From positions 192,001 through 256,000 of the forward strand of contig OZ246423.1 in NCBI GenBank assembly GCA_965231215.1: DNA of 64,000 bases, given 5' to 3'. This document shows, in pieces, positions 19,726-36,002 of the stretch (its first letter is position 1; each line of letters begins with the position of its first letter). The stretch comes from Candidatus Altimarinota bacterium. GTDB lineage: Bacteria > Patescibacteriota > Gracilibacteria > UBA4473. A program made the position numbers and the translations under genes. The notes under the pieces are model-generated. The model ran no database searches, had not been told where the DNA came from, and saw nothing but the letters and a program-made list of their open reading frames with translations.

Positions 19726-22700
19726 TTAGATTGTGGTGAGAGCGGCTCTTTCTTTGGCATAAGTTCCATCATTCCAGAGCCCTTGACTTAATTCTTGCAC
19801 TTTTTCATCATACTTGTCAACTACATCTCGAATATCGCTAATAATACAGCTCTTGCCATTCCCAAAAGCCTCAAAAGCAGCGTAGTAAGCGTCTTGGCAT
19901 GGTTTCACCGCTTCTTCAAAGTGACGAGGGTCATTTTCTCTAAACTTTTCTATTTCACTCAAAAACACCCAAGGCGCATCCAGGACGGCTCCCAAACTAT
20001 AATCTCTCAATAATCCTTCATATTCTGATCTCAAGGAAGACGCTAAAACACCCATTGGCTTACCCGTAATCTCTTGGGCTAAAATATTATGGAAAATCCA
20101 ATACCTATGAGCATCATCTATATGCATTCGCCCTAAAACATCCGTCCTCCCTTTACCACCTTCTGGCACAAAGGGCGCTTGGATTTCATTATAACCAGGA
20201 GCATCATAAGCCATCATTCGAGCACCTGTTAAATCATTGTGATCACTAGTGTCAAAAGATTTAGCGTTAAACCTAGCTGTAACATCAGTGGAAAGAAGCA
20301 TCATACTCCCTGTAATACCACAGTCTCGATTTGGGATTCTTACTGAACCACAAAGTTGAATTTCTGGCGAATCTGCAGAAATGAGTCCTTCTTCTTGAAG
20401 CAGTCGAGCAAACAAGGTTATTTCTGCAGAAGTTGGCATTGGAGGAAGGCATAAGGATTCACCAGCATGAATTAGCTTAAATGATGTTTGACTCAACCCA
20501 AGAAAACGTCTTAACCGTCTAAACAAATCTTCAGTAAAAGTTCCATGAAGATGGACCTTTCCAGCAAGAGGCATCATCCCAAAGTATTTTTTTCTTTGCA
20601 TCAGTATGTATTCACGAAATACTGGGAAAAAGTCTTCTAAAAGTTCTACATTTGTTAATGCTGTGCCAATTTCTCCTCTAGAATTTGGGGACATCAATAA
20701 AGGGAGATCACTGCTATTTGGGTGTCTAGCTGCCAGTAAAAATCCTGAAAGCAACGAGGCTCTTGTAGCCATCTCCGCATAACCACCTGGATTTTCTGTG
20801 TCTTTAGCTAATGGTATTTTCATGGCGGCTTGCCACACGTCTCCATACTCTAAAGGCCATCCAAAACTACGGAAAAAATCAGAAAAGCCTTCAACCTTTA
20901 GGTAACGACCCTCAGCCCAAATAGTTTTAAAGCTCATCAAATCAACATTAACATCAGGATCGTTATGTTTAGAGCCAGTATCTGAAAGCTCACGCATAGC
21001 CGTATGCAGTTTAATAATGTTGGTAAGATCTGTATGAAGTAGTTCTATAATCGAAGCTACCGTAAGTTCACTATTTTTATCTAAACTGGATAAGTCTTTT
21101 AAAAGCTTTTCTGTATCAAAAATATCAAGCCTAAAAGCCTTGTCTAAAGTAGAAACATTTAAATCCCCAGAACGGAAAATCTGAGAAAAATTTTTAGGAT
21201 CAAAATCAGTAATTTCCTTAACTTCACTTAAAACTCTAGCGATAATTAACCCTGATATGTTATCCGTAATAGCTCCTGATTTTAGCAAAATATCAACGAC
21301 CCGAATAAGCCCTATCGAAAACATTGTTTTAGCTAAATTTTGGTTTTGGCTTTGCTCTTGTAAATCAAAGAGTTGGGCATTAACCCTAGATACAATTTTT
21401 CTAATAGGGTGATCACTATACCCTTCATAGAAATAATGATCTTCTGAAGTCTTAGCAGTATCCAGATCAATCATCAATGGATCACCTTTTTGATTTCTAT
21501 CAGCAACATATCGCCCCCAAACCTCTGTCCAAAAACAAGCATGAGGTATCAAATCCAGGTCTATGGCTGATAGTTGCCATATATCTCTAAAGAATCTAGA
21601 AGCCTCTAAAACTATAGCTTCATCCGTTAATTTCTTCTTGGTCTTTTCATATTCTTCACCCGAAAATCCTTCTAACATCCAAGAAAGCCAATCTTCTACC
21701 TGTTCCCAAGTAAGCAGCCCATCAGCAAAAAAACCAAGTAAATTATGCATAACCATTGACCGATTAAGATAACTCTCTGTATTTTGACGATGTACATCTC
21801 TTCTTTCTTCACTGCCTGGGGTCTCAAATAGCCATTCATAGCTAATAGCCGGATTTTGAATATTCAGAAAAATATGAAGATATCGTATAAAACCATCAGG
21901 TGGGTTTAGCGGATCTTCAAAGAACCCAGCACAACAACTAAAATAAAAGCTCGCAACATTAGCATAACTAGAACGAAACCTCTGCATACTTTCACACTCT
22001 CGATAGAATTTCTCATAAAAATCAACAAAAGCCAAGCGTGGATTTTCAAGGCTTGCAGGAACAGATGAATCTAAAACCTCCTCTGGATCTGAAAGTCTTA
22101 AATGAGTTAGTGAAGGTAGTGCTAATCGATCAGAAATATCTTGAACTCTCCCATCTCTAGTTTGTATGCTAGCAGGCCTCCTTTCTTTACGGCTTTTAGC
22201 TAAATAATGAGGCACGTGTTCAGCGATCATTGCATCATCCACCGAACTAAACAAAATAGTGTCTGCATCAATTTTTCCAGACAAAGCTATGAGATTTTGC
22301 TGTCCTGGTAATTCGACTATAGTCTTTTTATCTTCAAGTAAACCTAACATTTCATTGTTTGGTTTATTCCTATCAATAAGCCCAAAAAACTTCTCTAAAT
22401 ATTCAACCTTTTCATCCTGAGTTTCTTTTACTATTTCAGTAGCTTGAACAATAAGCTTTTTAGCTCTGTCTGGATTCCCTACACCAAATTTAGCCACCAC
22501 TCGACTTACAAAATCAACAGCCAAGCTCTCATCCCCTCCTAGTGCTGTACATAGACCCATACCTACCTCAGCATAAACTTTAGCCGTATCCTCATAAGCA
22601 AAATGACTTTTCTCGGCAATAGATGTTAAAGTCTCAAGAGGAAGGCCTAAATCTGCCTGAACTAAATCACAACGATGTTTAAACCACCAAGGAGCCTCCC

Positions 22701-24006
22701 CCTCTGAATAAACGCGGCTCATTAACTTTATTGTAGTCCTAATGGCTTTCTCGATATTTCCTACTTCTTTTTTAACTAGAAATATCTGCTCTACAAAATC
22801 CAGAATATTCAGACCATTGCTCAAAGCTACGTTGAAGTCTTCAACAAAATTATAAAACCACAAAGCGTTATCTCTAAAAGCTTTTTGGAAAACAGGCCGC
22901 AATGAAGAACGAGTAAACAAATACAGCAACTCAGCAGTACACAAATCACCTAATTGAGACTGAACTTTCTCACACCAACTTTCGTTTCTAGTGTTTAAGT
23001 CAACCCTTACTGGTTGGGCTAATTGGGCTGGACTCAAATTTCCAACACGCTTTGCCATCTCCGTGTAGGCGTATTCCAATTGCCGAAAATCAAAATCATC
23101 TGCCCATAACTGCCAGCAAACACCTAGAGATGATTTAATTCTAGAGTTAGCCCATTCTAGGGGGCTATCAAATGCTTCATTCTGATCTAAAGCTTCTTCT
23201 ACCGCTTTAAAAAATTGAGGCAAGGCAAAACTGATTTGATGCTGGCCATCTTTACAACGCCCTTGTTCAAAATACAACCCCATACAAAGACGATCTTGTG
23301 GAATAAAAATTGGGTTTTTAAGAGAAAAATTAAGTACAAGATGATCCTTATTATTAGCAATAGATCCTTCCCTTGTCCCTATGACTGAACCAGGTTGATT
23401 TATATAGTCATCAAAATTTGTATCTAAGTCTGTTGGATGTAAAAACCCATTAGCCCGGACTCTATTTCTAGAGTCTAGCTTTGAAGCTCCAGGCTGCCTT
23501 CGAGCTACCCCCAGAATCATAAAAAGTGGAATATTATCCCCAAACCTACGAAGCATCCCCTCAATTTCGCTATTAACCCTTTGCCTTGCATGATCTCCAA
23601 CGAAAAAACGTTCTCTAAACATTCTCGCTTTAAGATGAGTACGCTCTGTCTCAAAATCAAATTGTTTACCGGTAGGTTCTCTTGTGAAACTTTCCTCCAA
23701 ACGCAGACTAAAAGAATCCGGTAACCCAGACCATGGAGCCTGAGTACTCATTAGAGAAGGGTCGGTTAAGTTCAACCTAAGACTTCTATATGTAGGAAAC
23801 TCTAAGTCATCTTTAAAAAAATCTAAAGATTCTGCAAAAACACGCTCACAGTCTTTTTCGAACTGGGCTTGCTGCGCATCTATTTTCTCTTCAAGTTCTT
23901 TCCATTTTATATCGTCCGAACAATCATACTCTTCTTCATCGGGATCAATAAATCCAACTAAATCCAAATCTTCAAATTCCGGAGAGATTCTATCCAACCT
24001 GCTCAT
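19726..24006 (-). CDS. large hypothetical protein (1426 aa)
   Basis: Long uninterrupted ORF; upstream TTGACT..TATATA promoter-like sequence; no family recognised. Confidence 0.85.
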   Translation of the reverse strand: MSRLDRISPEFEDLDLVGFIDPDEEEYDCSDDIKWKELEEKIDAQQAQFEKDCERVFAESLDFFKDDLEFPTYRSLRLNLTDPSLMSTQAPWSGLPDSFSLRLEESFTREPTGKQFDFETERTHLKARMFRERFFVGDHARQRVNSEIEGMLRRFGDNIPLFMILGVARRQPGASKLDSRNRVRANGFLHPTDLDTNFDDYINQPGSVIGTREGSIANNKDHLVLNFSLKNPIFIPQDRLCMGLYFEQGRCKDGQHQISFALPQFFKAVEEALDQNEAFDSPLEWANSRIKSSLGVCWQLWADDFDFRQLEYAYTEMAKRVGNLSPAQLAQPVRVDLNTRNESWCEKVQSQLGDLCTAELLYLFTRSSLRPVFQKAFRDNALWFYNFVEDFNVALSNGLNILDFVEQIFLVKKEVGNIEKAIRTTIKLMSRVYSEGEAPWWFKHRCDLVQADLGLPLETLTSIAEKSHFAYEDTAKVYAEVGMGLCTALGGDESLAVDFVSRVVAKFGVGNPDRAKKLIVQATEIVKETQDEKVEYLEKFFGLIDRNKPNNEMLGLLEDKKTIVELPGQQNLIALSGKIDADTILFSSVDDAMIAEHVPHYLAKSRKERRPASIQTRDGRVQDISDRLALPSLTHLRLSDPEEVLDSSVPASLENPRLAFVDFYEKFYRECESMQRFRSSYANVASFYFSCCAGFFEDPLNPPDGFIRYLHIFLNIQNPAISYEWLFETPGSEERRDVHRQNTESYLNRSMVMHNLLGFFADGLLTWEQVEDWLSWMLEGFSGEEYEKTKKKLTDEAIVLEASRFFRDIWQLSAIDLDLIPHACFWTEVWGRYVADRNQKGDPLMIDLDTAKTSEDHYFYEGYSDHPIRKIVSRVNAQLFDLQEQSQNQNLAKTMFSIGLIRVVDILLKSGAITDNISGLIIARVLSEVKEITDFDPKNFSQIFRSGDLNVSTLDKAFRLDIFDTEKLLKDLSSLDKNSELTVASIIELLHTDLTNIIKLHTAMRELSDTGSKHNDPDVNVDLMSFKTIWAEGRYLKVEGFSDFFRSFGWPLEYGDVWQAAMKIPLAKDTENPGGYAEMATRASLLSGFLLAARHPNSSDLPLLMSPNSRGEIGTALTNVELLEDFFPVFREYILMQRKKYFGMMPLAGKVHLHGTFTEDLFRRLRRFLGLSQTSFKLIHAGESLCLPPMPTSAEITLFARLLQEEGLISADSPEIQLCGSVRIPNRDCGITGSMMLLSTDVTARFNAKSFDTSDHNDLTGARMMAYDAPGYNEIQAPFVPEGGKGRTDVLGRMHIDDAHRYWIFHNILAQEITGKPMGVLASSLRSEYEGLLRDYSLGAVLDAPWVFLSEIEKFRENDPRHFEEAVKPCQDAYYAAFEAFGNGKSCIISDIRDVVDKYDEKVQELSQGLWNDGTYAKERAALTTI

Positions 24007-24109
24007 TGCTATTTATATAAACTTTTTTTAAAAAAAGTCAATATTGGATATCACAAATTTTCTGTACAAAAAATTTGACCAACTTCGAACAAAAATTATA
24101 TTCAAGGGT

Positions 24110-25238
24110 GATGTTAAAAAAATTTCCTCTCCTAGGAGCCAAAAAAAACAAAAAAAAAATGAGAGTCATCTTCTACAACGAGGTAAAAAAAACATCTTCC
24201 TACTCACTAAAACCCACTAATACCGTTAAAAATGCTTCACGCGTTTGGGGGCGTTTTTGCCTGCTTATTGGTATTTCTTCTATTGCTTTCTTCGTAAATA
24301 CTGAAGCATTTTATGACGTAGGTGAAACCGATCCACACCTTTCAACTTTCAATCATCTTCGAGATGTAGGCATTATGAAAGGTTCAGCTGATGGCAATTT
24401 CTACCCAGAAAAATTAATGACCCGAGCCGAAGCCCTCACCGTAGCGCTCAGATCAGGAGGGATTTCTATTCCCCAGTATTCAGGGGAAATACATTTTAAT
24501 GATGTAGATCCAAATGCCTGGTATGCGTCTACTGTAGCCAGAGCCGTAGAAACCAACGTTATCCGACCTGGATACACCAATTTTAGACCCGAGCAAGCGG
24601 TATCCAAAGCTGAGTTTTTAACTTTTCTTTTCCGGGCAACACTGACCGACCTCAAACCACATTACTCATCTCGGAATGTAGCCAGCGACATCCCAAATGA
24701 CAGTTGGATGGTTCCTTACTTTGATTATGCCAAAAGATATCAAATCGCTCATCTCCCAGCCGATGACCTTTATAGGCCTGCCAAAGCTCTCTCCAAAAGA
24801 GAAGTGGCACTCATGACTTACCGTCAACTCAAACTCTTCCACGGAAATGATGAAACAAAATTACTAGTAGAACTCAATGCCGCGATAAATCAGTTTCTGG
24901 AACTCATCCGAAATGGAAAAAACGAAGAAGCCGAATTCCAAGTACACCGACTCCTCCAACTCAATGAAAAAATTGCCCGAACCCGAAACAGTAGTGACGC
25001 CGTAGCGGCACTAGCGATCTCCAGGTCTATGGAACACCTCAGTGAAAGTTTTCGATATTTTCGATACGGCAACAACCTCCGAGGCATTGAGAACCTACAT
25101 CTAGCCCTCAAACAAGCCAGGCGAGCCCAAGAAAAATCTGTTGCCATGGAAGGTTTTGCCCAAGAACTTGCTAACATCATTAGTGAAAGTCTCATCACCT
25201 ACACTCAACCAAGTTTAGGCAGATACAGTCAGAATTAA
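24110..25238 (+). CDS. S-layer homology (SLH) domain protein (start uncertain)
   Basis: FYDV..GIMKG..DGNFYPEK.MTRAEA; FNDVDPNAWY..FRPEQAVSKAEF; SDIPNDSW..YRPAKALSKRE. Confidence 0.88.
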
Positions 25239-28968: not shown

Positions 28969-31284
28969 TTATAACAAAAACTTCGCCTCCCTCAACCCAT
29001 CAATTTTTTGTACCACCTGTAGAGAATCAATATCGATTTTACCTACGTATAAATCAGCGATTTCTCCGCCCTTTTGAAGATATTTTTCAATATCACGATT
29101 CCCCATAAAGTAGATTGCATCTTTAGTAAAGGCGCCTTTTGATTCACTATCGGCATACCCTCTTTTGGCCTTGAGGCACAATTTCCAAGCCAGGTCATCA
29201 CTTACATTAAAGGTGCTTTTTAGATAGTGGAATAAGTCGTGAAACCCCATTCGATTAGCCAAATAAATTGTAATAATTTGATAGGCAGGGGTGAGGAATT
29301 TTTCTCCAAGGTCTAACCCTAATTGATTTTGATTCCAGACAGCTAATCCTTCTTCAGTTCGAAGATAGTTAGCGGTTCCTCGTTCTAAAATTCGAAAAGG
29401 CTGCAGCTTTCCATTTTCATATCGGAACACATGTGTCCCGATCTCATGCACCAACAACGCATGCAATCTATTTCTTCTAAACTTAGCTCCTTTTTTTAGG
29501 AGTATCGCATCTCTTTTGGTTACCTGAATATCAGCTACAGATTCATCCAAAATTTTGATCTGCCAATGCCCAAGCCCATACTCTTTCAAAAAGTTATTCA
29601 AGATTTCTAAAGATTTTTTAAAATCAAGTTCTTCACTTTCATCAGCCTTAATTTTGCGTTCATGGTCTCTAATAAATTTTTGAGCCTCTTGATAAATATG
29701 TCGTGTAACTTTACCGAAGACTCTTTCTGAAAACAGTGCATACTCTGAACTTCCACGCGCCTCTAGCATTGACAGCCTATCCTCTAATTCTTGAATTTTT
29801 TTCTGAAACAGGGGGAATAATTCATGATTTACCTCTGGTAGTTTTTTGAGATCATTCCGCATAGCCGGAATATCTAGATTAATATCTTTATAGGTAAACC
29901 GAGGTGAAAATTCTGGACTCGCCAAAAATATTTCTTTTTGTTCTCTCAGATTCCGTGGATTGATAAATGACAGTAACTTTATCTGTGTATCAATCTCGGC
30001 AATTTTTAAATCAATATTTTTGAGCATACGTTCATCTACAGAATGAGTAGAAATCTCGGCAAGATTTTCTTTTTCAAACTTTTTATTTGGGTCAATATAA
30101 AAATCACTCAAAAACTTACCAGCCAGGATGAGGTCAGCGTCTTTTAAATCCTTGTGACTTTTCTCTACTGGAAGTTTCAATCTTTTGCCGTGAAGTGTAA
30201 TATCTAAAACTTTATTTTTTTCATCATAATACTCCTTAGCAATAAAATTTTTTTCAGCATTAAGCGCTACACGAGCCACTAAACTTTGTGGTGGATCAGA
30301 ATTCAAAAGTACATTCTCATAGATACCCACAATAGGTTTTGGGATGAAGTGTTCTTCATACACAGATTTTTCAGCAAAAAGAGTTTTCGCTACATCCACC
30401 CCTTCTTCTGGGGTAAGGACTTTTAGATCTACTACTTTATCCAGCCTTTTTTTAAGCGGGACTCTATTGGCCACTTGAATTTTAAGTCCCGGACGAGCAT
30501 TAAGTTCCAATATCTTAACTCCGGTATTAGTAACCACTAAATCTACTCCCAAAAACCCAATTTTGGTAACTGACTGAGACTTAGCTACCGCATGCAAAAT
30601 CTCATCCCAATAAGGCACTTTAAATCCCGCAGCTTTTTCTCCGTTAGGAAGTCTGGTAATGAATTTAGATTTCTTAGCCGCCCCTGTAGTAATGCCCGAA
30701 CCAATATCTACTCCCATAGCAATTGCGCCAAGCTCCATATTGGCTTTGCCCTCAGATTCTACCGTTGGAACTCGTAGCATAGCCATCACTGGCACCATAT
30801 TAAATACGATTACCCGAACATCTGGAAGGCCTGTTTGAGTCAACAATCTGAAGTCAGGATGTGGATCTAATTTTTCCTCAAAAATGATATAATCATAAGT
30901 CCCTGAAATGGAATATTTCCCTTCTAAAATGTCAATGCAGTGCAGATATAAATGTTCTTGATCATATTTTTTACCAGAAACCGTCACCCAATTTTTCCCT
31001 TTACGCTTATCAATCACCAAAATCCCGCCTCCCGCAAAACCTCTGTTAGGTTTAATTACAAAAGATTCTGGTAACCCTTCAAAAAATTCATTCGTTAACT
31101 GACGTTGGTTTTTTACGGTATGAAAAAGTCTAGCCGCTCCAATCCCTCGGGATTCTAAAAACTGCTTGGTAAAAATTTTATCATCAGCAAATTTTTTATT
31201 ACTACTCGAGTTATACCGCGAAATATAGAGTAAATTTCGCGCATTCATTCCCAAAATGCCAGAGGTATCGTTAGTAAACAACAT
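28969..31284 (-). CDS. alpha-L-glutamate ligase-like ATP-grasp fused to an inactive retropepsin-like domain and a DUF1704/MATCAP-type metallocarboxypeptidase
   Basis: GMNARN, ADDK..TK, FVIKPNRG..GGGI, GLPDVRVIV, AMLRVPT..S.GKAN, LELNARPGL.IQ.AN; IVGIYE..ARVALNA..GKFLSDFYIDP; HEIGTH, TEEGLA, KRG, FTKDAIY, LYVGKI. Confidence 0.85.
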   Translation of the reverse strand: MLFTNDTSGILGMNARNLLYISRYNSSSNKKFADDKIFTKQFLESRGIGAARLFHTVKNQRQLTNEFFEGLPESFVIKPNRGFAGGGILVIDKRKGKNWVTVSGKKYDQEHLYLHCIDILEGKYSISGTYDYIIFEEKLDPHPDFRLLTQTGLPDVRVIVFNMVPVMAMLRVPTVESEGKANMELGAIAMGVDIGSGITTGAAKKSKFITRLPNGEKAAGFKVPYWDEILHAVAKSQSVTKIGFLGVDLVVTNTGVKILELNARPGLKIQVANRVPLKKRLDKVVDLKVLTPEEGVDVAKTLFAEKSVYEEHFIPKPIVGIYENVLLNSDPPQSLVARVALNAEKNFIAKEYYDEKNKVLDITLHGKRLKLPVEKSHKDLKDADLILAGKFLSDFYIDPNKKFEKENLAEISTHSVDERMLKNIDLKIAEIDTQIKLLSFINPRNLREQKEIFLASPEFSPRFTYKDINLDIPAMRNDLKKLPEVNHELFPLFQKKIQELEDRLSMLEARGSSEYALFSERVFGKVTRHIYQEAQKFIRDHERKIKADESEELDFKKSLEILNNFLKEYGLGHWQIKILDESVADIQVTKRDAILLKKGAKFRRNRLHALLVHEIGTHVFRYENGKLQPFRILERGTANYLRTEEGLAVWNQNQLGLDLGEKFLTPAYQIITIYLANRMGFHDLFHYLKSTFNVSDDLAWKLCLKAKRGYADSESKGAFTKDAIYFMGNRDIEKYLQKGGEIADLYVGKIDIDSLQVVQKIDGLREAKFLL

Positions 31285-31286
31285 AA

Positions 31287-32843
31287 TTATTCTTGGCTAT
31301 CTTCGTTAAGTAAGCTTCTAAATTTAATATATTCTGAGACCCGTAGCCCTGTAAATCTCCCCAGCCAAACAGTGCCTAAGATGGGAAGAAGAATTAGCTC
31401 AGGCGTCGCCAACACGTTATCTTTCACTACTTCCCACGTTACAAACATAAACGCTACAAACGCTACAAATACCGTTTCTACTGCAGAAACAATCGCGTTT
31501 CGCATCCCTTCACTTGATTGAGATGAAAGAAATTTTTCTGAAAAAGTCGACATCACCATCATCGGAAAAATTGTCAGTGAAAGATCCATCGAAGTTCCAA
31601 AATAAACCGCTAATCCCAACACTACAAAAAAGGAAAGGGCCAAACAGCTAAGCAACAAGGAAACCTTTGGAATGTAGAGAAGCTCTACCCTATCAAACAG
31701 CAATCTAATCGCATAGCTCACCAACATTACCACTCCAAACACCATCAACCCAAATTGAAGTCCCAGTACTAAAAACGCCAACGCCAACATTAAAGGCGCC
31801 AAAACTCCAAAAGTAGAAACCCCAATAAACTGACGGAAAAACGCAATAATGAAGGCCAAAAAAGGCACCGAAAGCAAGATATAAATCACCGTTTGTGATA
31901 ACCCATTAGAAGAGAAAAAATTCATTAATCGACTGAAGGGAAGCAACCAACTAATTCGACTTCTTGAATCTACTCTTTGATTTTCAATCCCTCGAAGGTT
32001 TAATTGATTCAGCATAATGCCAATATTTTCTTCTGAAAAGATAGGAATCATTGCCTCCGGACGAGTTAGCAGTATAAAATTTGGCTGCAAAATTCCAAAA
32101 GCTGGTTGGGTTAATTTATCAATTTTATCCAAGCTATCTTGCGTGATCTCTACAATCAATTTGTCTCTCAAATCAAACTTTATATCTGGTGAAAGCAGTT
32201 TCCAAAACTGACTAAATGACTGAATCCCTCGGGTTGAGTTTGTATAAAAAATAATGCTAGAAGCCTCTTGAAGCTGATCAAAATTTTCTTGGAATTTACG
32301 GATAAAATCATCCTCTACAGATAAATCACTCGACTCCCCAGACACCATAATTTTTTGAAGTAAAATCCCTTTTTCAGCCGCCTCTTTTTCAATCTCAGTA
32401 AGAGACTCCCCCAGACCATCTGTAATCAAAACTATCTTACGAGTATAAACCAAAATTCGCTTAGCAATAGTGGCTCGTTTTTTCCCCTGAGTCACGACCA
32501 ATTCCACCTTATAGGAACCTGGTTGGGCAAAGACATGCTTGACCTTTTCTCCACGAGCTTTTTCTAAATCTCCAAAGTCCCAGTAATAATTAGGTGTTCC
32601 AAAGTTAGAAAGTGAGACAATTTTAGAACTCGTCGCATCAAACAAAATTTCTTGCCCCAACTCAATACTGTCTGGAGTCGTAATTATGGGGTCTATATCC
32701 CCTTCATCCAAATTTTCCATATTGGCTTCTAACACACTTTCATCTACTACAAATTCAGCATCTGCAACTTCCGCTTCTTGAGCCAAAGCTAAGCCATATA
32801 ATTGCCATAACAAAACCGTTAAAATAAATAATCTCTGCATCAC
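31287..32843 (-). CDS. signal peptide + PKD domain + 7TM (7TM_transglut-like) membrane protein
   Basis: FDATSS..YYWDFGD..HVFAQPGSYKVELVV (PKD); FRQFIGVSTFGVLAP, LLYIPKV, IFPMMVMS.FSEK, LGRFTGLRVSEYIKF (7TM). Confidence 0.85.
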   Translation of the reverse strand: MMQRLFILTVLLWQLYGLALAQEAEVADAEFVVDESVLEANMENLDEGDIDPIITTPDSIELGQEILFDATSSKIVSLSNFGTPNYYWDFGDLEKARGEKVKHVFAQPGSYKVELVVTQGKKRATIAKRILVYTRKIVLITDGLGESLTEIEKEAAEKGILLQKIMVSGESSDLSVEDDFIRKFQENFDQLQEASSIIFYTNSTRGIQSFSQFWKLLSPDIKFDLRDKLIVEITQDSLDKIDKLTQPAFGILQPNFILLTRPEAMIPIFSEENIGIMLNQLNLRGIENQRVDSRSRISWLLPFSRLMNFFSSNGLSQTVIYILLSVPFLAFIIAFFRQFIGVSTFGVLAPLMLALAFLVLGLQFGLMVFGVVMLVSYAIRLLFDRVELLYIPKVSLLLSCLALSFFVVLGLAVYFGTSMDLSLTIFPMMVMSTFSEKFLSSQSSEGMRNAIVSAVETVFVAFVAFMFVTWEVVKDNVLATPELILLPILGTVWLGRFTGLRVSEYIKFRSLLNEDSQE

Positions 32844-32941: not shown

Positions 32942-33379
32942 ATGCAGGTACAGATTTACAGAATTGATAAAGATCTTGAATGCCCAAAATATGAGACTGA
33001 TGGCAGCTTTGGATTTGATTTTACGGCAAGAGAAGAAACCACTATTCCACCACAAGAAGTAGGATTTATTCCCAGCAATACCATCATCAAATGCCCAAAA
33101 AATCTAGCGCTACTGATCCTCCCACGCAGCTCTACTTACAGAAAAAAGGGACTAATGTTTCCCCATTCTATTGGGCTTATTGATCAAGACTACTGTGGCC
33201 CAGAAGATGAAATTTTGATCCAGGTTATCAACTTTGGGAAAGCCCCCATCATCATCAAAAGAGGTGAGCGCATCGCCCAAGGGCTTTTTGTACAAACACA
33301 AAATGTCGAGTTTATTGAGGTAGAAAAAGAATTTCTAGGAAAAAACTCACGTGGAGGATTTGGATCTACAGGACATTAA
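32942..33379 (+). CDS. dut: dUTP diphosphatase
   Basis: GSFGFD, PRSS, GLIDQDYCG, GERIAQ, RGGFGSTG. Confidence 0.95.
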   Translation: MQVQIYRIDKDLECPKYETDGSFGFDFTAREETTIPPQEVGFIPSNTIIKCPKNLALLILPRSSTYRKKGLMFPHSIGLIDQDYCGPEDEILIQVINFGKAPIIIKRGERIAQGLFVQTQNVEFIEVEKEFLGKNSRGGFGSTGH

Positions 33380-34325: not shown

Positions 34326-36002
34326 TTACTTTAACCAATCACTGACTTTTTCAAAGTACGCTTCCTCAAAATAGTCTTTCATCCCCTGCTTAGTCACCCA
34401 TTTGTATTCAATGATTTCTTCATTATCTACTTCAACGTTGCCTTCAATATACTCGGCATAAAAGAAAGAAACTTTAGCCCCAACAATACCTTCATCATGT
34501 CTATCAAAATCAAACGGGAAGAAATATTTGTAGTCCCCTACAGGTTTCTCTCCTTTAAATTTTATAACCAAATCAGATCCACATTCTTCTCTTAGTTCTC
34601 TTTTAGCGGCTTGAAGCCAAGCTTCTTCCGCCTCTACTCCGCCTTGTGGAAATTGCCAGGCATGGGCTTTTCGAGGTTTTTTAACAATAAGATATTTGTC
34701 CCTACCACACTTGATCCCCACTCGATGTACAATCACTGAACTAACGGGCCTTAACTGGCCTTCCCAGTCAGCTAACTCCAACCAAAAATCAGGCCAAGTT
34801 TTGGCTACGCAGTGAGGGTCGGTTATCTGAAAATTTAACGGTTGAGTCGATCTTAAAATCCCAAAACACATTGCAATTCTATGATCATCAAAACTATCAA
34901 TAACCATCTCTGCTCCGCCCTTGATTTCATCACCTCCAACAATAGTTACCTCATCCCCAAACGTATTTAAATTGACACCAAACGCTCTGAGTTGTTCCAT
35001 CGCTACAATCCGGTCACACTCTTTTACTCGCAAACTTTCAAGGCCTGTAAACTTAGAGGTTCCCTTAGCTACACTCGCCAATACCATGCCCGTCATACTC
35101 ACATCTGGCATAGCCGACCAATCAAAATCCCCTATTGGGGCAATGATTTTAGGCGGTTTTAGGAGCACTTTTTCCCCTGAGCGTGTGATCTTAGCACCAC
35201 ATTTTTTAATAATTTCTAAAAATCCTTCATCTCCTTGAAAAGTGTGAGATCCAAAATTTTCAATACAAATAGATTCACCACTCAAAACCGACCAAGCTAA
35301 AGGATAAGAGGCTGAACTCATATCAGCTGGAACTTGAAATTCTGATGGCGCCTCAAATCCAGGGCTGATTTTATACTCTAGCCAATCATCACTCACTTGA
35401 ATATTCACCCCCCAAAGTCTAAGCAGATCAACCGTCATTTGCACATACGGCAGACTGGGGATACTATCGATAATAGTGATATTTAAACCATTTTTAAGTC
35501 TTGGAGCTACCAAAAGTAAGCCGCTTAAAAATTGGGAAGAAATTCTTCCAGAAATTTTAACCTCTGTCCCAATATTCCCAGAAGCCCTCAATTGAGCTGG
35601 CAAATATCCAGTATTTTTCTGATATTCAATGCTCACCCCTAAAGCCTCTAGAGCCTGCATAAGATCTTCTTGTGGACGTGCTTGCATTCGTTCAATTCCC
35701 GTCAACACATAAGCTCCTTCTATAACCAAAGACAACGCCGAAAGGAAACGCGCTGCTGTTCCCGCATTCCCAATAAAAATTTCTTGCCCATTGGCTTTTA
35801 GTACTGGAGGGGGCGTCACTTTTACGGCTGTTTGTGAAATTTCTTCAATCTTTACCCCAAAACTTCGGAGCGCTTCACGCATATACTGTGAATCATCTGA
35901 ATCCAAAATATTTTTAAGCACCACTGGCCTATCTGAAATGCCAGCTAAAACTAACATACGATTAGTAATAGACTTACTCCCTGGCACATAAACTTTTTTC
36001 AT
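34326..36002 (-). CDS. aroA: EPSP synthase fused to a C-terminal Nudix hydrolase
   Basis: PGSKSITNR, GNAGTAARF, SSQFLSGLL, RVKECDRI, DDHRIAM, VAKTWPDFW; then WQFPQGGVEAEEAWLQAAKRELREECG (Nudix box). Confidence 0.92.
   Translation of the reverse strand: MKKVYVPGSKSITNRMLVLAGISDRPVVLKNILDSDDSQYMREALRSFGVKIEEISQTAVKVTPPPVLKANGQEIFIGNAGTAARFLSALSLVIEGAYVLTGIERMQARPQEDLMQALEALGVSIEYQKNTGYLPAQLRASGNIGTEVKISGRISSQFLSGLLLVAPRLKNGLNITIIDSIPSLPYVQMTVDLLRLWGVNIQVSDDWLEYKISPGFEAPSEFQVPADMSSASYPLAWSVLSGESICIENFGSHTFQGDEGFLEIIKKCGAKITRSGEKVLLKPPKIIAPIGDFDWSAMPDVSMTGMVLASVAKGTSKFTGLESLRVKECDRIVAMEQLRAFGVNLNTFGDEVTIVGGDEIKGGAEMVIDSFDDHRIAMCFGILRSTQPLNFQITDPHCVAKTWPDFWLELADWEGQLRPVSSVIVHRVGIKCGRDKYLIVKKPRKAHAWQFPQGGVEAEEAWLQAAKRELREECGSDLVIKFKGEKPVGDYKYFFPFDFDRHDEGIVGAKVSFFYAEYIEGNVEVDNEEIIEYKWVTKQGMKDYFEEAYFEKVSDWLK

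What the first reader, a model, noticed from the sequence alone, without database searches (positions are those of the whole stretch)
28969..32843. Writer-eraser fusion: ATP-grasp peptide ligase + dead retropepsin + MATCAP/DUF1704-type carboxypeptidase, paired with a PKD-7TM protein
Seen: a 771-aa protein with three parts. Residues ~8-305 are an alpha-L-glutamate-ligase-like ATP-grasp. Residues ~315-400 are retropepsin-like, with the catalytic DTG replaced by ARVALNA. The C-terminal domain has HEIGTH (HExxxH), TEEGLA and FTKDAIY. The gene starts 2 nt after a gene for a signal peptide + PKD + 7TM_transglut-like protein. Established: ATP-grasp + 7TM + aspartyl-protease operons have been proposed as peptide-tagging systems, and HExxxH...EEGLA defines DUF1704, the family of the eukaryotic tubulin C-terminal carboxypeptidase MATCAP/TMCP. 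Eukaryotic tubulin tyrosine and glutamate ligases (TTL/TTLL) are ATP-grasp enzymes. Inference: one polypeptide that both adds and removes C-terminal residues (probably Glu), analogous to the tubulin code cycle. The ancestral protease appears inactivated and replaced, and an extracellular-sensing 7TM partner may control the cycle.
Basis: partly seen in the sequence, partly recalled or inferred. Interest (0 to 1): 0.85.

Follow-up and report, generated by a model that had tools for sequence, protein, structure and literature searches.

The report
Ligase-peptidase fusion with Glu-tailed membrane partner
A tiny-genome bacterium carries a two-gene unit in which one protein joins an amino-acid-adding enzyme to a relative of the human tubulin-trimming enzyme MATCAP, and its membrane partner ends in a conserved glutamate tail that may be what the pair writes on and erases.

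Summary
Window 28969-31284(-) encodes a 771-aa protein. It has an RloC/RimK-like ATP-grasp (7-304), a retropepsin-fold domain that lacks the catalytic Asp (about 315-400), and a MATCAP/DUF1704 metallopeptidase (425-760) with HExxxH and EEG intact. Two nt upstream ends a signal-peptide + PKD + 7TM_transglut (RloB-like) gene.

The fusion is a conserved, uncharacterised family in Patescibacteria. Most relatives are shorter: ATP-grasp plus a retropepsin with DTGA intact.

New here: where the retropepsin is dead, the 7TM partner ends in Glu in 34 of 36 loci (30 -EE). Where DTG is intact, 6 of 80 do. Of 102 database homologues of the partner, 99 end in Glu. This rests on about 4 evolutionary events, and the phylogenetic test is underpowered.

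Best reading: a cytoplasmic write/erase pair for C-terminal residues, related to the Pseudomonas RloABC and RimK/RimB systems. The partner's cytoplasmic tail is the likely substrate. No activity has been shown. Verdict: new variant of a known kind, interest 0.72.

The parts
31287..32843 (-). Partner gene, 518 aa: signal peptide, PKD domain, unassigned ~180-aa extracytoplasmic region, RloB-like 7TM domain, short cytoplasmic tail ending ...NEDSQE
   Evidence: ORF. (PKD 54-130; PF14402 316-511, 1.9e-29). (NF052267 RloB, 7TM part only, 1.6e-19, below cut-off). (no lead for residues 125-312).
32454..32684 (-). PKD domain of the partner (residues 54-130)
   Evidence: PF18911 3.8e-13, PF00801 6.6e-08.
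31311..31898 (-). 7TM_transglut-type membrane domain of the partner (residues 316-511)
   Evidence: hydropathy peaks, with K/R-bearing loops after TM1, TM3, TM5 and TM7, consistent with N-out/C-in. This is a rough window scan, not a topology predictor.
31290..31358 (-). Cytoplasmic C-terminal tail of the partner (residues 496-518, RFTGLRVSEYIKFRSLLNEDSQE). It has a conserved GLRxxEYxxFR motif, a variable linker and a terminal Glu. It is the candidate substrate.
   Evidence: terminal Glu in 34 of 36 DTG-lost loci and in 99 of 102 database homologues; positions -3 to -6 are variable.
28969..31284 (-). Fusion gene, 771 aa: ATP-grasp + dead retropepsin + MATCAP-type metallopeptidase
   Evidence: AF2 pLDDT 88.4, pTM 0.71.
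30373..31266 (-). RloC/RimK-like ATP-grasp ligase domain (residues 7-304). K78, E136, D155, R157, R171, N182, D248, E260 and N262 are invariant in 114 homologues.
   Evidence: RimK 5zct/5zk6/4iwx at E 6e-9 to 1.4e-8.
30085..30342 (-). Degenerate retropepsin-fold domain (residues ~315-400)
   Evidence: hhalign 97.2%, E 4.2e-11. (pLDDT 90.5). (RloA2/RloA top hits, TMq 0.64-0.69).
30256..30276 (-). ARVALNA (residues 337-343), in the place of the retropepsin K-I-D-T-G-A catalytic motif; the Asp is Ala here
   Evidence: position 340 is D in 85, S in 11, N in 7, E in 5 and A in 3 of 114. Position 341 is T/S in 7 and position 342 is G in 10 of 114.
29005..30012 (-). MATCAP/DUF1704 (TIGR02421-like) metallocarboxypeptidase domain (residues 425-760)
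   Evidence: (7z5g E 1.3e-22, motifs aligned). (Foldseek E 3.2e-13, TM target 0.60-0.62).
29431..29448 (-). HEIGTH (residues 613-618): HExxxH metal and catalytic motif
   Evidence: H613 and E614 in 114 of 114, H618 in 113 of 114; aligned to HEIGTH of human MATCAP.
29341..29358 (-). TEEGLA (residues 643-648): EEG motif, the proposed third metal ligand
   Evidence: E644 in 114/114, E645 in 113/114, G646 in 114/114; the TMCP paper describes HExxxH plus EEG.

Best explanation
This is a two-gene, membrane-associated module that modifies protein C-termini. It is a Patescibacteria variant of the Rlo/Rim family of glutamylation systems.

The cytoplasmic 771-aa protein carries a RimK/RloC-like ATP-grasp ligase, which adds amino acids (most likely Glu) to an acidic C-terminus. 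On the same chain sits a MATCAP-type metallocarboxypeptidase, which takes C-terminal residues off one at a time. Between them is a retropepsin domain that has lost its catalytic Asp. It is the relic of the poly-Glu endopeptidase that does the erasing in related systems (RimB, RloA, and the ATP-grasp-retropepsin fusions of other Patescibacteria).

The partner is an N-out/C-in 7TM protein with an extracytoplasmic PKD module. Its short cytoplasmic tail ends in an encoded, conserved Glu (-QE here, -EE in most relatives). I propose that this tail is the primer and substrate. The ligase extends it and the peptidase trims it back, so tail length sets or reports the state of the 7TM protein.

Shown: the domain identities, intact catalytic motifs, the dead retropepsin, strict gene coupling, and the covariation of the tail. 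Inferred: both activities, the residue added, that the tail is the substrate, and any signalling role.
For: Domains and motifs
- Domain calls.
- MATCAP homology by sequence (7z5g, 1.3e-22, with HEIGTH/TEEGLA/KRG/F[ST]KD..Y aligned) and by fold.
- The best ATP-grasp folds are RimK, including the RimK-RpsF complex 5zk6, and LysX/ArgX. All of these act on C-terminal Glu tails.
- Ligase and peptidase catalytic residues are invariant or nearly so in 114 full-length homologues.
- The middle domain has the RloA fold and aligns to DTGA-bearing tails.

Published biochemistry
- RimB and RloA cleave poly-Glu. rloB or rloC deletion suppresses the rloA1-3 defects (PMC12239564; abstract, passages and section 8 read).
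- TMCP/MATCAP enzymes remove C-terminal Glu and shorten poly-Glu chains (PMC10499314, passages).

Gene context
- A same-strand 7TM gene lies within 400 nt in 76 of 80 related loci.
- MATCAP is fused in two separate places of the ATP-grasp tree and is a separate neighbouring gene in others.
- The window genome (99.3% complete) has no PF05618 retropepsin elsewhere, and single copies of PF08014 and PF14402.

The tail
- Among 116 non-redundant loci, DTG-lost partners end in Glu in 34 of 36 (30 -EE). DTG-intact partners do so in 6 of 80.
- Position -1 is E in 34/36 and position -2 is E in 30/36, while positions -3 to -6 vary.
- 99 of 102 database homologues of the partner end in E.
- The genome baseline is 69 of 1050 ORFs ending in E and 7 in EE.

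Complex prediction (weak)
- For fusion plus 7TM domain, ipSAE was 0.42 (runs 0.43, 0.36, 0.42) against a best of 3 controls of 0.00.
- That mark was reached by 58 of 80 solved complexes and 2 of 110 mismatched pairs. At 0.60 or under it was reached by only 7 of those 80 solved complexes and by both of the mismatches that passed.
- The runs agree in at least 78% of contacts, and partner pLDDT is at least 73. My own alignments were used, so the calibration counts hold only roughly. No contacts were given.
Against: - No activity, substrate or product has been measured for any member.
- The tail association is not independent across loci. On the tree the DTG state changes only 4 times. In 4 independent pairs the tail goes the same way in 2.2 on average and the other way in 0. 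The sign test has median p 0.5.
- Exceptions among DTG-lost loci: L088 (-NLD) and L101 (-KSH).
- Exceptions among DTG-intact loci with E tails: L032, L084, L137 (-EE), and L028, L030, L136 (-xE).
- MATCAP presence alone does not predict the tail. Only 2 of 13 DTG-intact loci with MATCAP fused or adjacent end in E.
- Seven of 37 tails are followed by TGA, which some Gracilibacteria read as Gly.
- Eight other ORFs of this genome also end in [QE]E.
- In Pseudomonas the Rlo eraser is periplasmic, which argues there for an exported product rather than a cytoplasmic tail.
- Topology rests on a crude hydropathy scan.
- Both NCBIfam hits are below the equivalog cut-offs.
Confidence: 0.5

Rival explanations
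1. Polymer or peptide export. The ATP-grasp makes free poly-alpha-glutamate, or glutamylates a small peptide or surface polymer. The 7TM protein exports or anchors the product. The MATCAP domain only limits chain length in the cytoplasm. The terminal Glu of the 7TM protein is incidental or a docking signal.
For: - In P. aeruginosa the RloA erasers are secreted. The authors conclude that they cleave poly-Glu peptides or post-translationally polyglutamylated proteins, and that RloB/RloC act in the same process.
- The same paper's introduction states that RimK also makes free poly-alpha-L-glutamate.
- Most relatives with an active retropepsin have basic, non-Glu 7TM tails (74 of 80), so the 7TM-ligase partnership does not need a Glu tail.
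Against: - It does not explain the position-specific conservation of the terminal E/EE on a variable linker.
- It does not explain why that tail appears with loss of the endopeptidase.
- Here the eraser is cytoplasmic and fused to the ligase, which would make a futile cycle for an export product.
Confidence: 0.25
2. Reader or docking model. The dead retropepsin domain has become a binding module for the partner's acidic tail, acting as a pseudo-substrate. It tethers the enzyme to the membrane protein. The real substrate of the ligase and peptidase is another protein or peptide.
For: - The trait that tracks the Glu tail is loss of the DTG motif, not presence of MATCAP (2 of 13 against 34 of 36).
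- The domain stays well folded (pLDDT 90.5) and conserved.
- K338 (K or R in 97 of 114) corresponds to the Lys of the K-I-D-T-G motif, and K390 (109 of 114) aligns with the Arg of the G-R motif.
- RloA binds poly-Glu through basic residues, including K46 two residues before D48.
Against: - There is no direct evidence of binding. The complex prediction gave no contacts.
- A tethered tail ending in Glu beside a RimK-like ligase and a Glu-removing carboxypeptidase would itself be a likely substrate, so this model overlaps the best explanation.
Confidence: 0.15
3. Sequential maturation rather than opposition. The MATCAP domain removes one or more residues to expose an acceptor, and the ligase then adds a different residue or builds a peptide. 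This would be one pathway, not a cycle.
For: - Fusions often join consecutive steps.
- MATCAP-type enzymes generate defined truncated tails such as delta-1, delta-2 and delta-3 tubulin.
Against: - The encoded tail already ends in the acceptor-like Glu.
- In the related, characterised Rim system the protease reverses the ligase.
Confidence: 0.07

Closest known systems
RloABC operon of Pseudomonas aeruginosa (Lormand et al. 2025, mBio; PMC12239564)
   Same: - It pairs a TIGR02291-type cytoplasmic ATP-grasp (RloC) with a PF14402 7TM membrane protein (RloB) and a retropepsin-fold component.
- The middle domain's best structural matches are RloA2 and RloA.
   Different: - The window's retropepsin is fused, cytoplasmic and lacks the catalytic Asp.
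- No secreted RloA exists in the genome.
- The partner carries a PKD plus an unassigned domain where RloB has an inactive transglutaminase.
- A MATCAP peptidase is added.
- The partner ends in a conserved Glu.
RimK/RimB with ribosomal protein S6 (RpsF)
   Same: - A RimK-like ATP-grasp fold (5zct, 5zk6, 4iwx, 7qys).
- A writer that extends a C-terminal Glu tail and a retropepsin-like eraser.
   Different: - The RimK Pfam model hits only weakly (PF08443, 7.9e-4, below cut-off).
- This genome's RpsF ends ...DESTENL, with no EE acceptor.
- The system is coupled to a membrane protein and uses an exopeptidase.
MATCAP1/TMCP1 and TMCP2 (KIAA0895L, KIAA0895), eukaryotic tubulin carboxypeptidases and deglutamylases, acting opposite TTL/TTLL ligases
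   Same: - The same family (PF08014) and fold, with the HExxxH and EEG motifs.
- The enzymes act on -EE(Y) tails and shorten poly-Glu chains.
- The logic of an ATP-grasp writer opposed by this eraser.
   Different: - About 23% identity.
- No tubulin substrate.
- Writer and eraser are on one chain.
- The writer is RimK/RloC-like, not a TTL-family member. PF03133 does not hit the window protein.
ATP-grasp + active retropepsin fusions of other Patescibacteria (about 430-510 aa)
   Same: - The same ATP-grasp clade, the same upstream 7TM gene, and a homologous second domain.
   Different: - They keep K-[IVL]-D-T-G-A (55 of 57 tails).
- They usually lack MATCAP.
- Their 7TM partners end in basic or neutral residues (74 of 80).

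Membership tests
MATCAP / DUF1704 (PF08014; TIGR02421 QEGLA) | Profile match over the family's cut-off | tested here: met
   PF08014 at 157.5 bits against a cut-off of 27. TIGR02421 at 168 bits is below its 338.65 equivalog cut-off, so this is a family member but not that equivalog.
MATCAP / DUF1704 (PF08014; TIGR02421 QEGLA) | HExxxH motif plus EEG third-ligand motif | tested here: met
   HEIGTH at 613-618 and TEEGLA at 643-648, invariant or nearly so in 114 homologues and aligned to human MATCAP. The motif definition comes from PMC10499314.
MATCAP / DUF1704 (PF08014; TIGR02421 QEGLA) | MATCAP fold | tested here: met
   Foldseek top hits are 7z5g and 7z6s, at E 3.2e-13 to 2.4e-12 and TM (target) 0.60-0.62.
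MATCAP / DUF1704 (PF08014; TIGR02421 QEGLA) | Metal-dependent carboxypeptidase activity on acidic tails | not testable with these tools
   Needs an enzyme assay.
RloABC system | RloC-type ATP-grasp (TIGR02291) | tested here: inconclusive
   E 3.5e-69 over 298 residues, but 233 bits is under the 314.2 cut-off. It is a relative, not an equivalog.
RloABC system | RloB: inactive transglutaminase domain fused to 7TM | tested here: not met
   Only the 7TM part matches (NF052267 positions 310-507, 70 bits against a cut-off of 900). The N-terminal part is PKD plus an unassigned region.
RloABC system | Secreted, catalytically active retropepsin RloA (signal peptide, D-T-G) | tested here: not met
   The genome has no PF05618 match at E<=1. 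The fused domain has Ala at the Asp position.
RimK family alpha-L-glutamate ligase | Match to the RimK models over cut-off | tested here: not met
   PF08443 at 19.5 bits (cut-off 21) and TIGR00768 at 41 bits (cut-off 143). The fold is nevertheless closest to RimK.
RimK family alpha-L-glutamate ligase | RpsF with a C-terminal Glu-Glu acceptor | tested here: not met
   RpsF of this genome ends ...VDESTENL.
Retropepsin-like aspartic peptidases (clan AA; PF05618/PF13650) | Retropepsin fold | tested here: met
   RloA2, RloA, DUF785, Ddi1, retroviral proteases; hhalign 97.2%.
Retropepsin-like aspartic peptidases (clan AA; PF05618/PF13650) | Catalytic D-T/S-G motif | tested here: not met
   The window has A-L-N. 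In the family, D is present in 85/114 but T/S follows in only 7/114 and G in 10/114. No Pfam hit.
TTL/TTLL tubulin ligases (PF03133) | Profile match | tested here: not met
   No PF03133 hit at E<=0.1 for the window protein. Two shorter relatives give sub-threshold hits only. The resemblance is at ATP-grasp superfamily level.

The most novel reading that the evidence does not exclude
A prokaryotic 'tail code'. A 7TM surface receptor carries an encoded -EE/-QE C-terminal tail. A dedicated bifunctional enzyme reversibly extends and trims this tail: a RimK-like ligase plus a MATCAP carboxypeptidase, with the dead retropepsin as the tail-holding reader. This would be a bacterial counterpart, and possibly the evolutionary source, of the eraser used in the eukaryotic tubulin tyrosination/glutamylation cycle. 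It would also name the long-sought kind of substrate for the RloB/RloC systems of Pseudomonas and Vibrio.
Probability: 0.3. Interest if true: 0.9.

Novelty: new variant of a known kind. Interest (0 to 1): 0.72.

Why it matters
- MATCAP/TMCP enzymes are known only as eukaryotic tubulin-tail erasers. Here the same catalytic domain is fused to a RimK-like writer across a bacterial phylum, beside a membrane protein whose end looks like a tubulin or S6 tail. That makes the ancestral job of this peptidase family directly testable.
- The Rlo system affects osmotic tolerance, antibiotic sensitivity and biofilm in Pseudomonas (PMC12239564), but its substrate is unknown. The Patescibacteria variant has everything on two proteins and an encoded acceptor-like tail, so it offers a simple in vitro system for finding what these ligases modify.
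- It is also a clean example of non-orthologous replacement: an endopeptidase eraser decays into a probable binding domain after an exopeptidase joins.

Tried and rejected
- Pfam on the middle domain gave no retropepsin hit at E<=0.1. A PDB sequence-profile search with the middle-domain alignment A2 gave only chance hits (SNF7 0.089, Pcc1, cytochrome). The link needed intermediate sequences and folds.
- The protein atlas on partner residues 125-312 gave no usable hit. That region stays unassigned.
- RpsF as substrate is rejected as the obvious target, because it has no Glu-Glu end.
- A non-standard genetic code in the window genome is rejected. Stops are TAA 670, TAG 270 and TGA 110, and ORFs are long under table 11.
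- A formal phylogenetic test of 'dead retropepsin goes with Glu tail' is underpowered: 4 independent pairs, median p 0.5. The uncorrected Fisher p of 8.6e-21 overstates the case and should not be quoted alone.
- Searches of the held library for the fusion found nothing relevant. These were 'DUF1704'+'ATP-grasp' (0 papers), 'MATCAP'+'bacterial'+'ATP-grasp' (0), 'DUF1704' (1, unrelated), 'QEGLA' (1, a transcriptome listing), 'inactive transglutaminase'+'ATP-grasp' (6, none on this fusion), and family accession numbers (32, the 15 listed all malaria gene names).
- The MATCAP1 paper PMC13269789 holds no mention of bacteria or homologues.
- Iyer et al. 2009 (PMC3268129) is not held. It may already describe ATP-grasp/7TM/protease contexts; what I say of it is recalled.
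- Supplementary files (for example Fig. S2 and S5 of PMC12239564) were not seen and may bear on the taxonomic spread of Rlo systems.

Full report
**What is there.**
Two ORFs lie on the minus strand: 31287-32843 (518 aa) and 28969-31284 (771 aa). They are separated by 2 nt; the junction reads ...CAA GAA TAA TT ATG. They form an isolated pair. A dUTPase gene diverges upstream and an arginyl-tRNA synthetase gene converges downstream. The wider neighbourhood is housekeeping. The window lies in a single 1,326,059-bp contig, 99.3% complete by marker genes. The genome uses the standard code (stops TAA 670, TAG 270, TGA 110). The closest named relative of the fusion (77% identity) is from a 'Candidatus Altimarinota' genome in the Patescibacteria group.

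**The 771-aa protein.**
- *Domain calls.* Pfam gives ATPgrasp_ST at 16-284 (6.8e-54) and MATCAP at 458-760 (6e-46). NCBIfam gives TIGR02291 'alpha-L-glutamate ligase-like' at 7-304 (3.5e-69) and TIGR02421 'QEGLA' at 425-760 (3.3e-49). Both are below their equivalog cut-offs.
- *MATCAP homology.* A profile of 62 homologues hits human MATCAP (KIAA0895L; 7z5g, 7z5h, 7z6s) at 1.3e-22. HEIGTH, TEEGLA, KRG and F(T/S)KD..Y are all aligned.
- *Whole-protein fold.* The AF2 model has mean pLDDT 88.4 and pTM 0.71. It finds MATCAP first (E 3.2e-13, TM target 0.60-0.62). Next come RimK (5zct, the RimK-RpsF complex 5zk6, 4iwx), cyanophycin synthetase and ArgX/LysX.
- *Catalytic residues.* In 114 full-length homologues the ATP-grasp residues K78, E136, D155, R157, R171, N182, D248, E260 and N262 are invariant. 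So are the peptidase residues H613, E614, E644, G646, K707, R708, D722 and Y725; H618 and E645 are present in 113 of 114. Both enzymes therefore look active.

**The middle domain.**
Pfam does not see it. A sequence-profile search of the PDB does not see it either. Three lines nonetheless place it in the retropepsin fold.
- *Profile alignment.* Most relatives in Patescibacteria are 430-510-aa proteins made of the same ATP-grasp plus a C-terminal tail of about 130 aa. 55 of 57 such tails carry D[TS]GA. The profile of the middle region aligns to these tails with hhalign probability 97.2 and E 4.2e-11. The window's ARVALNA falls on AKIDTGA, and LILAGKFLSDFYIDP falls on IIGRxDLxxFLIDP.
- *Family hits of the tails.* Of six such proteins scanned, five hit PF05618 (the RimB/RloA family) with PF13650 and/or PF13975. 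The exception is L079, whose motif is degenerate.
- *Fold of the domain alone.* An AF2 model of the domain (pLDDT 90.5) finds RloA2 (9g59, E 5e-5, TMq 0.66) and RloA (9g58). It also finds DUF785 (2pma), Ddi1 and retroviral proteases.

The catalytic Asp position (340) is Ala in the window. In the family it is D in 85, S in 11, N in 7, E in 5 and A in 3 of 114. The following T/S is kept in only 7 and the G in 10 of 114.

**The partner.**
It has PKD at 54-130 and PF14402 7TM_transglut at 316-511. The NCBIfam RloB model matches the 7TM part only. Residues of about 130-310 match nothing. A hydrophobic N-terminus ending ...ALA-QE looks like a signal peptide, judged by eye. K/R-bearing loops follow the first, third, fifth and seventh hydrophobic segments, which fits N-out/C-in (a crude scan). 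The cytoplasmic tail is RFTGLRVSEYIKFRSLLNEDSQE.

**How common it is, and how it evolved.**
- *Spread of the fusion.* The large protein collection holds 635 relatives (E<=0.001, among 8000 scored candidates). Of the best 120, 119 carry both PF14397 and PF08014, and 114 are 740-800 aa. Their source names include 'DUF1704 domain-containing protein' from Gracilibacteria and Buchananbacteria.
- *Genome scan.* A scan of species-representative genomes found 590 relatives, of which the best 80 were kept. 21 of the 80 are the three-part fusion. Nearly all the rest are ATP-grasp + retropepsin; two, L074 and L077, have no second domain.
- *The 7TM neighbour.* A same-strand 7TM gene lies within 400 nt in 76 of 80 loci. 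Two of the other four have no upstream DNA.
- *MATCAP as a separate gene.* It stands next to or near the ATP-grasp gene in L022, L040, L042, L045, L046, L062, L076 and L079.
- *Phylum sample.* In an even sample of the phylum, PF08014 is present in 74 of 401 genomes.
- *Tree of ATP-grasp domains* (80 rows). One starred clade of 20 holds fusions with the DTG motif lost. L019 and L021 are fusions that keep RIDTGEG and sit elsewhere on the tree. L076 and L079 have MATCAP as the next gene and a degenerate motif (NTGR, NTSR), and are nested among unfused forms.
- *Merged set.* In 125 non-redundant loci, all 36 DTG-lost loci that could be scored have MATCAP fused or adjacent. Part of this set was chosen by MATCAP presence. 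In the first, ATP-grasp-chosen set, 21 of 21 DTG-lost loci have MATCAP, against 8 of 57 DTG-intact loci.
- *Reading.* The retropepsin decays only where MATCAP has arrived. This supports 'inactivated and replaced'.

**The new observation: the partner's last residues.**
- *The counts.* 116 loci have both a second domain and an adjacent 7TM gene. Where DTG is lost, the 7TM protein ends in Glu in 34 of 36 (30 -EE, 4 -QE; exceptions L088 -NLD and L101 -KSH). Where DTG is intact, it does so in 6 of 80 (-EE in L032, L084 and L137; -xE in L028, L030 and L136). The other 74 end mostly in K, Q, A or S.
- *Position specificity.* Position -1 is E in 34/36 and position -2 is E in 30/36. At positions -3 to -6 the commonest residue reaches only 6-7 of 36.
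- *Database homologues.* Among 102 homologues of the partner, 99 end in E (48 -EE, 51 -xE, mostly -QE). Of the three exceptions, two stop inside or just after the conserved motif and look truncated; the third is a distant 30%-identical protein.
- *Baseline.* In this genome 69 of 1050 ORFs end in E and 7 in EE.
- *MATCAP alone is not the predictor.* Of 13 DTG-intact loci with MATCAP fused or adjacent, only 2 have a partner ending in E.
- *Caveats.* Kin are not independent. On a 124-row FastTree the DTG state changes 4 times and the tail state 9 times. Four independent pairs give 2.2 concordant, 0 discordant and 1.8 uninformative, with sign-test median p 0.5. Seven of 37 tails are followed by TGA, though their ends align with those followed by TAA or TAG.

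**Mechanism.**
- *What the literature says.* RimK adds Glu to the C-terminus of RpsF and RimB removes it. RloA and RimB cleave runs of at least 8 Glu. Loss of rloB or rloC suppresses the defects of rloA1-3 mutants, so RloB and RloC make or do something that the protease must undo. These points come from PMC12239564, of which I read the abstract, passages and section 8. TMCP1/2 (MATCAP) use HExxxH plus an EEG motif, remove C-terminal Tyr and Glu from -EEY/-EE tails, and shorten poly-Glu chains (PMC10499314, passages).
- *What I conclude.* The window's protein most likely writes and erases C-terminal residues on an acidic tail. The exopeptidase has taken over from the endopeptidase.
- *Why the partner's tail is the best substrate candidate.* A position-specific -E/-EE end, on the cytoplasmic tail of the protein encoded 2 nt upstream, appears in step with that takeover.
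- *A possible logic (inference only).* An endopeptidase that needs at least 8 Glu always leaves a Glu stub to re-prime the ligase. A carboxypeptidase can trim to the encoded end, so the acceptor must be encoded.
- *Complex prediction.* For fusion plus 7TM domain it gave weak support: ipSAE 0.42 (runs 0.43, 0.36, 0.42) against a best control of 0.00. That mark was reached by 58 of 80 solved complexes and 2 of 110 mismatched pairs. At 0.60 or under it was reached by only 7 of those 80 solved complexes and by both mismatches that passed. The runs agree in at least 78% of contacts and partner pLDDT is at least 73. My own alignments were used and no contacts were reported.
- *What is unknown.* The residue added (Glu by analogy with RimK; an aromatic residue cannot be excluded, given MATCAP's detyrosinase activity). 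Whether the extracytoplasmic PKD module senses anything is also unknown.

**Rivals.**
- *Free or exported poly-Glu product, with the 7TM protein as exporter.* The periplasmic location of RloA in Pseudomonas favours this. It does not explain the tail.
- *The dead retropepsin as a reader that docks the Glu tail.* This fits the fact that DTG loss, not MATCAP, tracks the tail. It also fits retention of K338 and K390. It overlaps with the main model.
- *Sequential maturation rather than a cycle.*
- *Other substrates.* Eight further ORFs of the genome end in [QE]E: a UvrD-like helicase, two Wzy_C proteins, a DUF389 protein, a sortase and three unknowns. They cannot be excluded.

**Comparison and novelty.**
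- The unit is related to RloABC but fails two of its three defining features. It has no inactive transglutaminase on the 7TM protein and no secreted active RloA.
- It is RimK-like in fold but is not a RimK family member, and RpsF lacks the acceptor.
- The C-terminal domain is a true PF08014 member.
- TTL/TTLL is an analogy at superfamily level only.
- The proteins are in public databases with automatic names. In the held literature I found no description of the fusion, of the retropepsin decay, or of the Glu tail. Iyer et al. 2009 could not be read and supplements were closed.
- I rate it a new variant of a known kind.

Noticed in passing
window 19726-24006 (-): A 1426-aa ORF with no Pfam family at E<=1e-5. 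It is the largest gene near the finding and is entirely unassigned.
   Followed up: no
window 34326-36002 (-): An EPSP synthase (residues 3-408) is fused to a C-terminal NUDIX domain (435-541) in one 558-aa ORF.
   Followed up: no
window 24075-25238 (+): A 387-aa protein with two S-layer-homology (SLH) stretches, in a small Patescibacteria-type genome.
   Followed up: no
window 33351-33379: The dUTPase ORF (32942-33379) and the PP-loop/TilS-like ORF overlap by 29 nt if the listed GTG start at 33351 is used. The true start may lie further downstream.
   Followed up: no
L114, L117-L120, L122, L123, L126-L130, L132, L133 (genome family f25): In one family of the phylum, 18 of 19 sampled genomes have MATCAP. 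In the loci scored, a stand-alone MATCAP gene of about 390 aa lies a constant 3.7-5.2 kb from an ATP-grasp + retropepsin operon. The retropepsin motif there is [FYT][MILV]DTG[VITNY][LM] and the 7TM partner is short. I did not examine whether this spacing means a functional link or only conserved synteny.
   Followed up: partly
L032, L137: Two loci keep an intact DTG retropepsin, yet their 7TM partners end in long acidic runs (...EEDEEE...EEEEREEE). L137 has a MATCAP gene 1.9 kb away on the other strand. L032 has none within 5 kb. They may be intermediates or counter-examples to the tail rule.
   Followed up: partly
L084 versus L085 (same genus code g11): Two fused proteins from one genus differ at the motif: KVDTGKK against KVDTSRK. 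Both partners end in -IEE. This suggests the motif is decaying within this lineage after the Glu tail was already in place.
   Followed up: no
G000:C1:720540-721457 (-) = L149: A 305-aa ORF of the window's genome ends ...KELSEEEDEE and has no Pfam family. It has the most acidic C-terminus in the genome and is another conceivable ligase target.
   Followed up: partly
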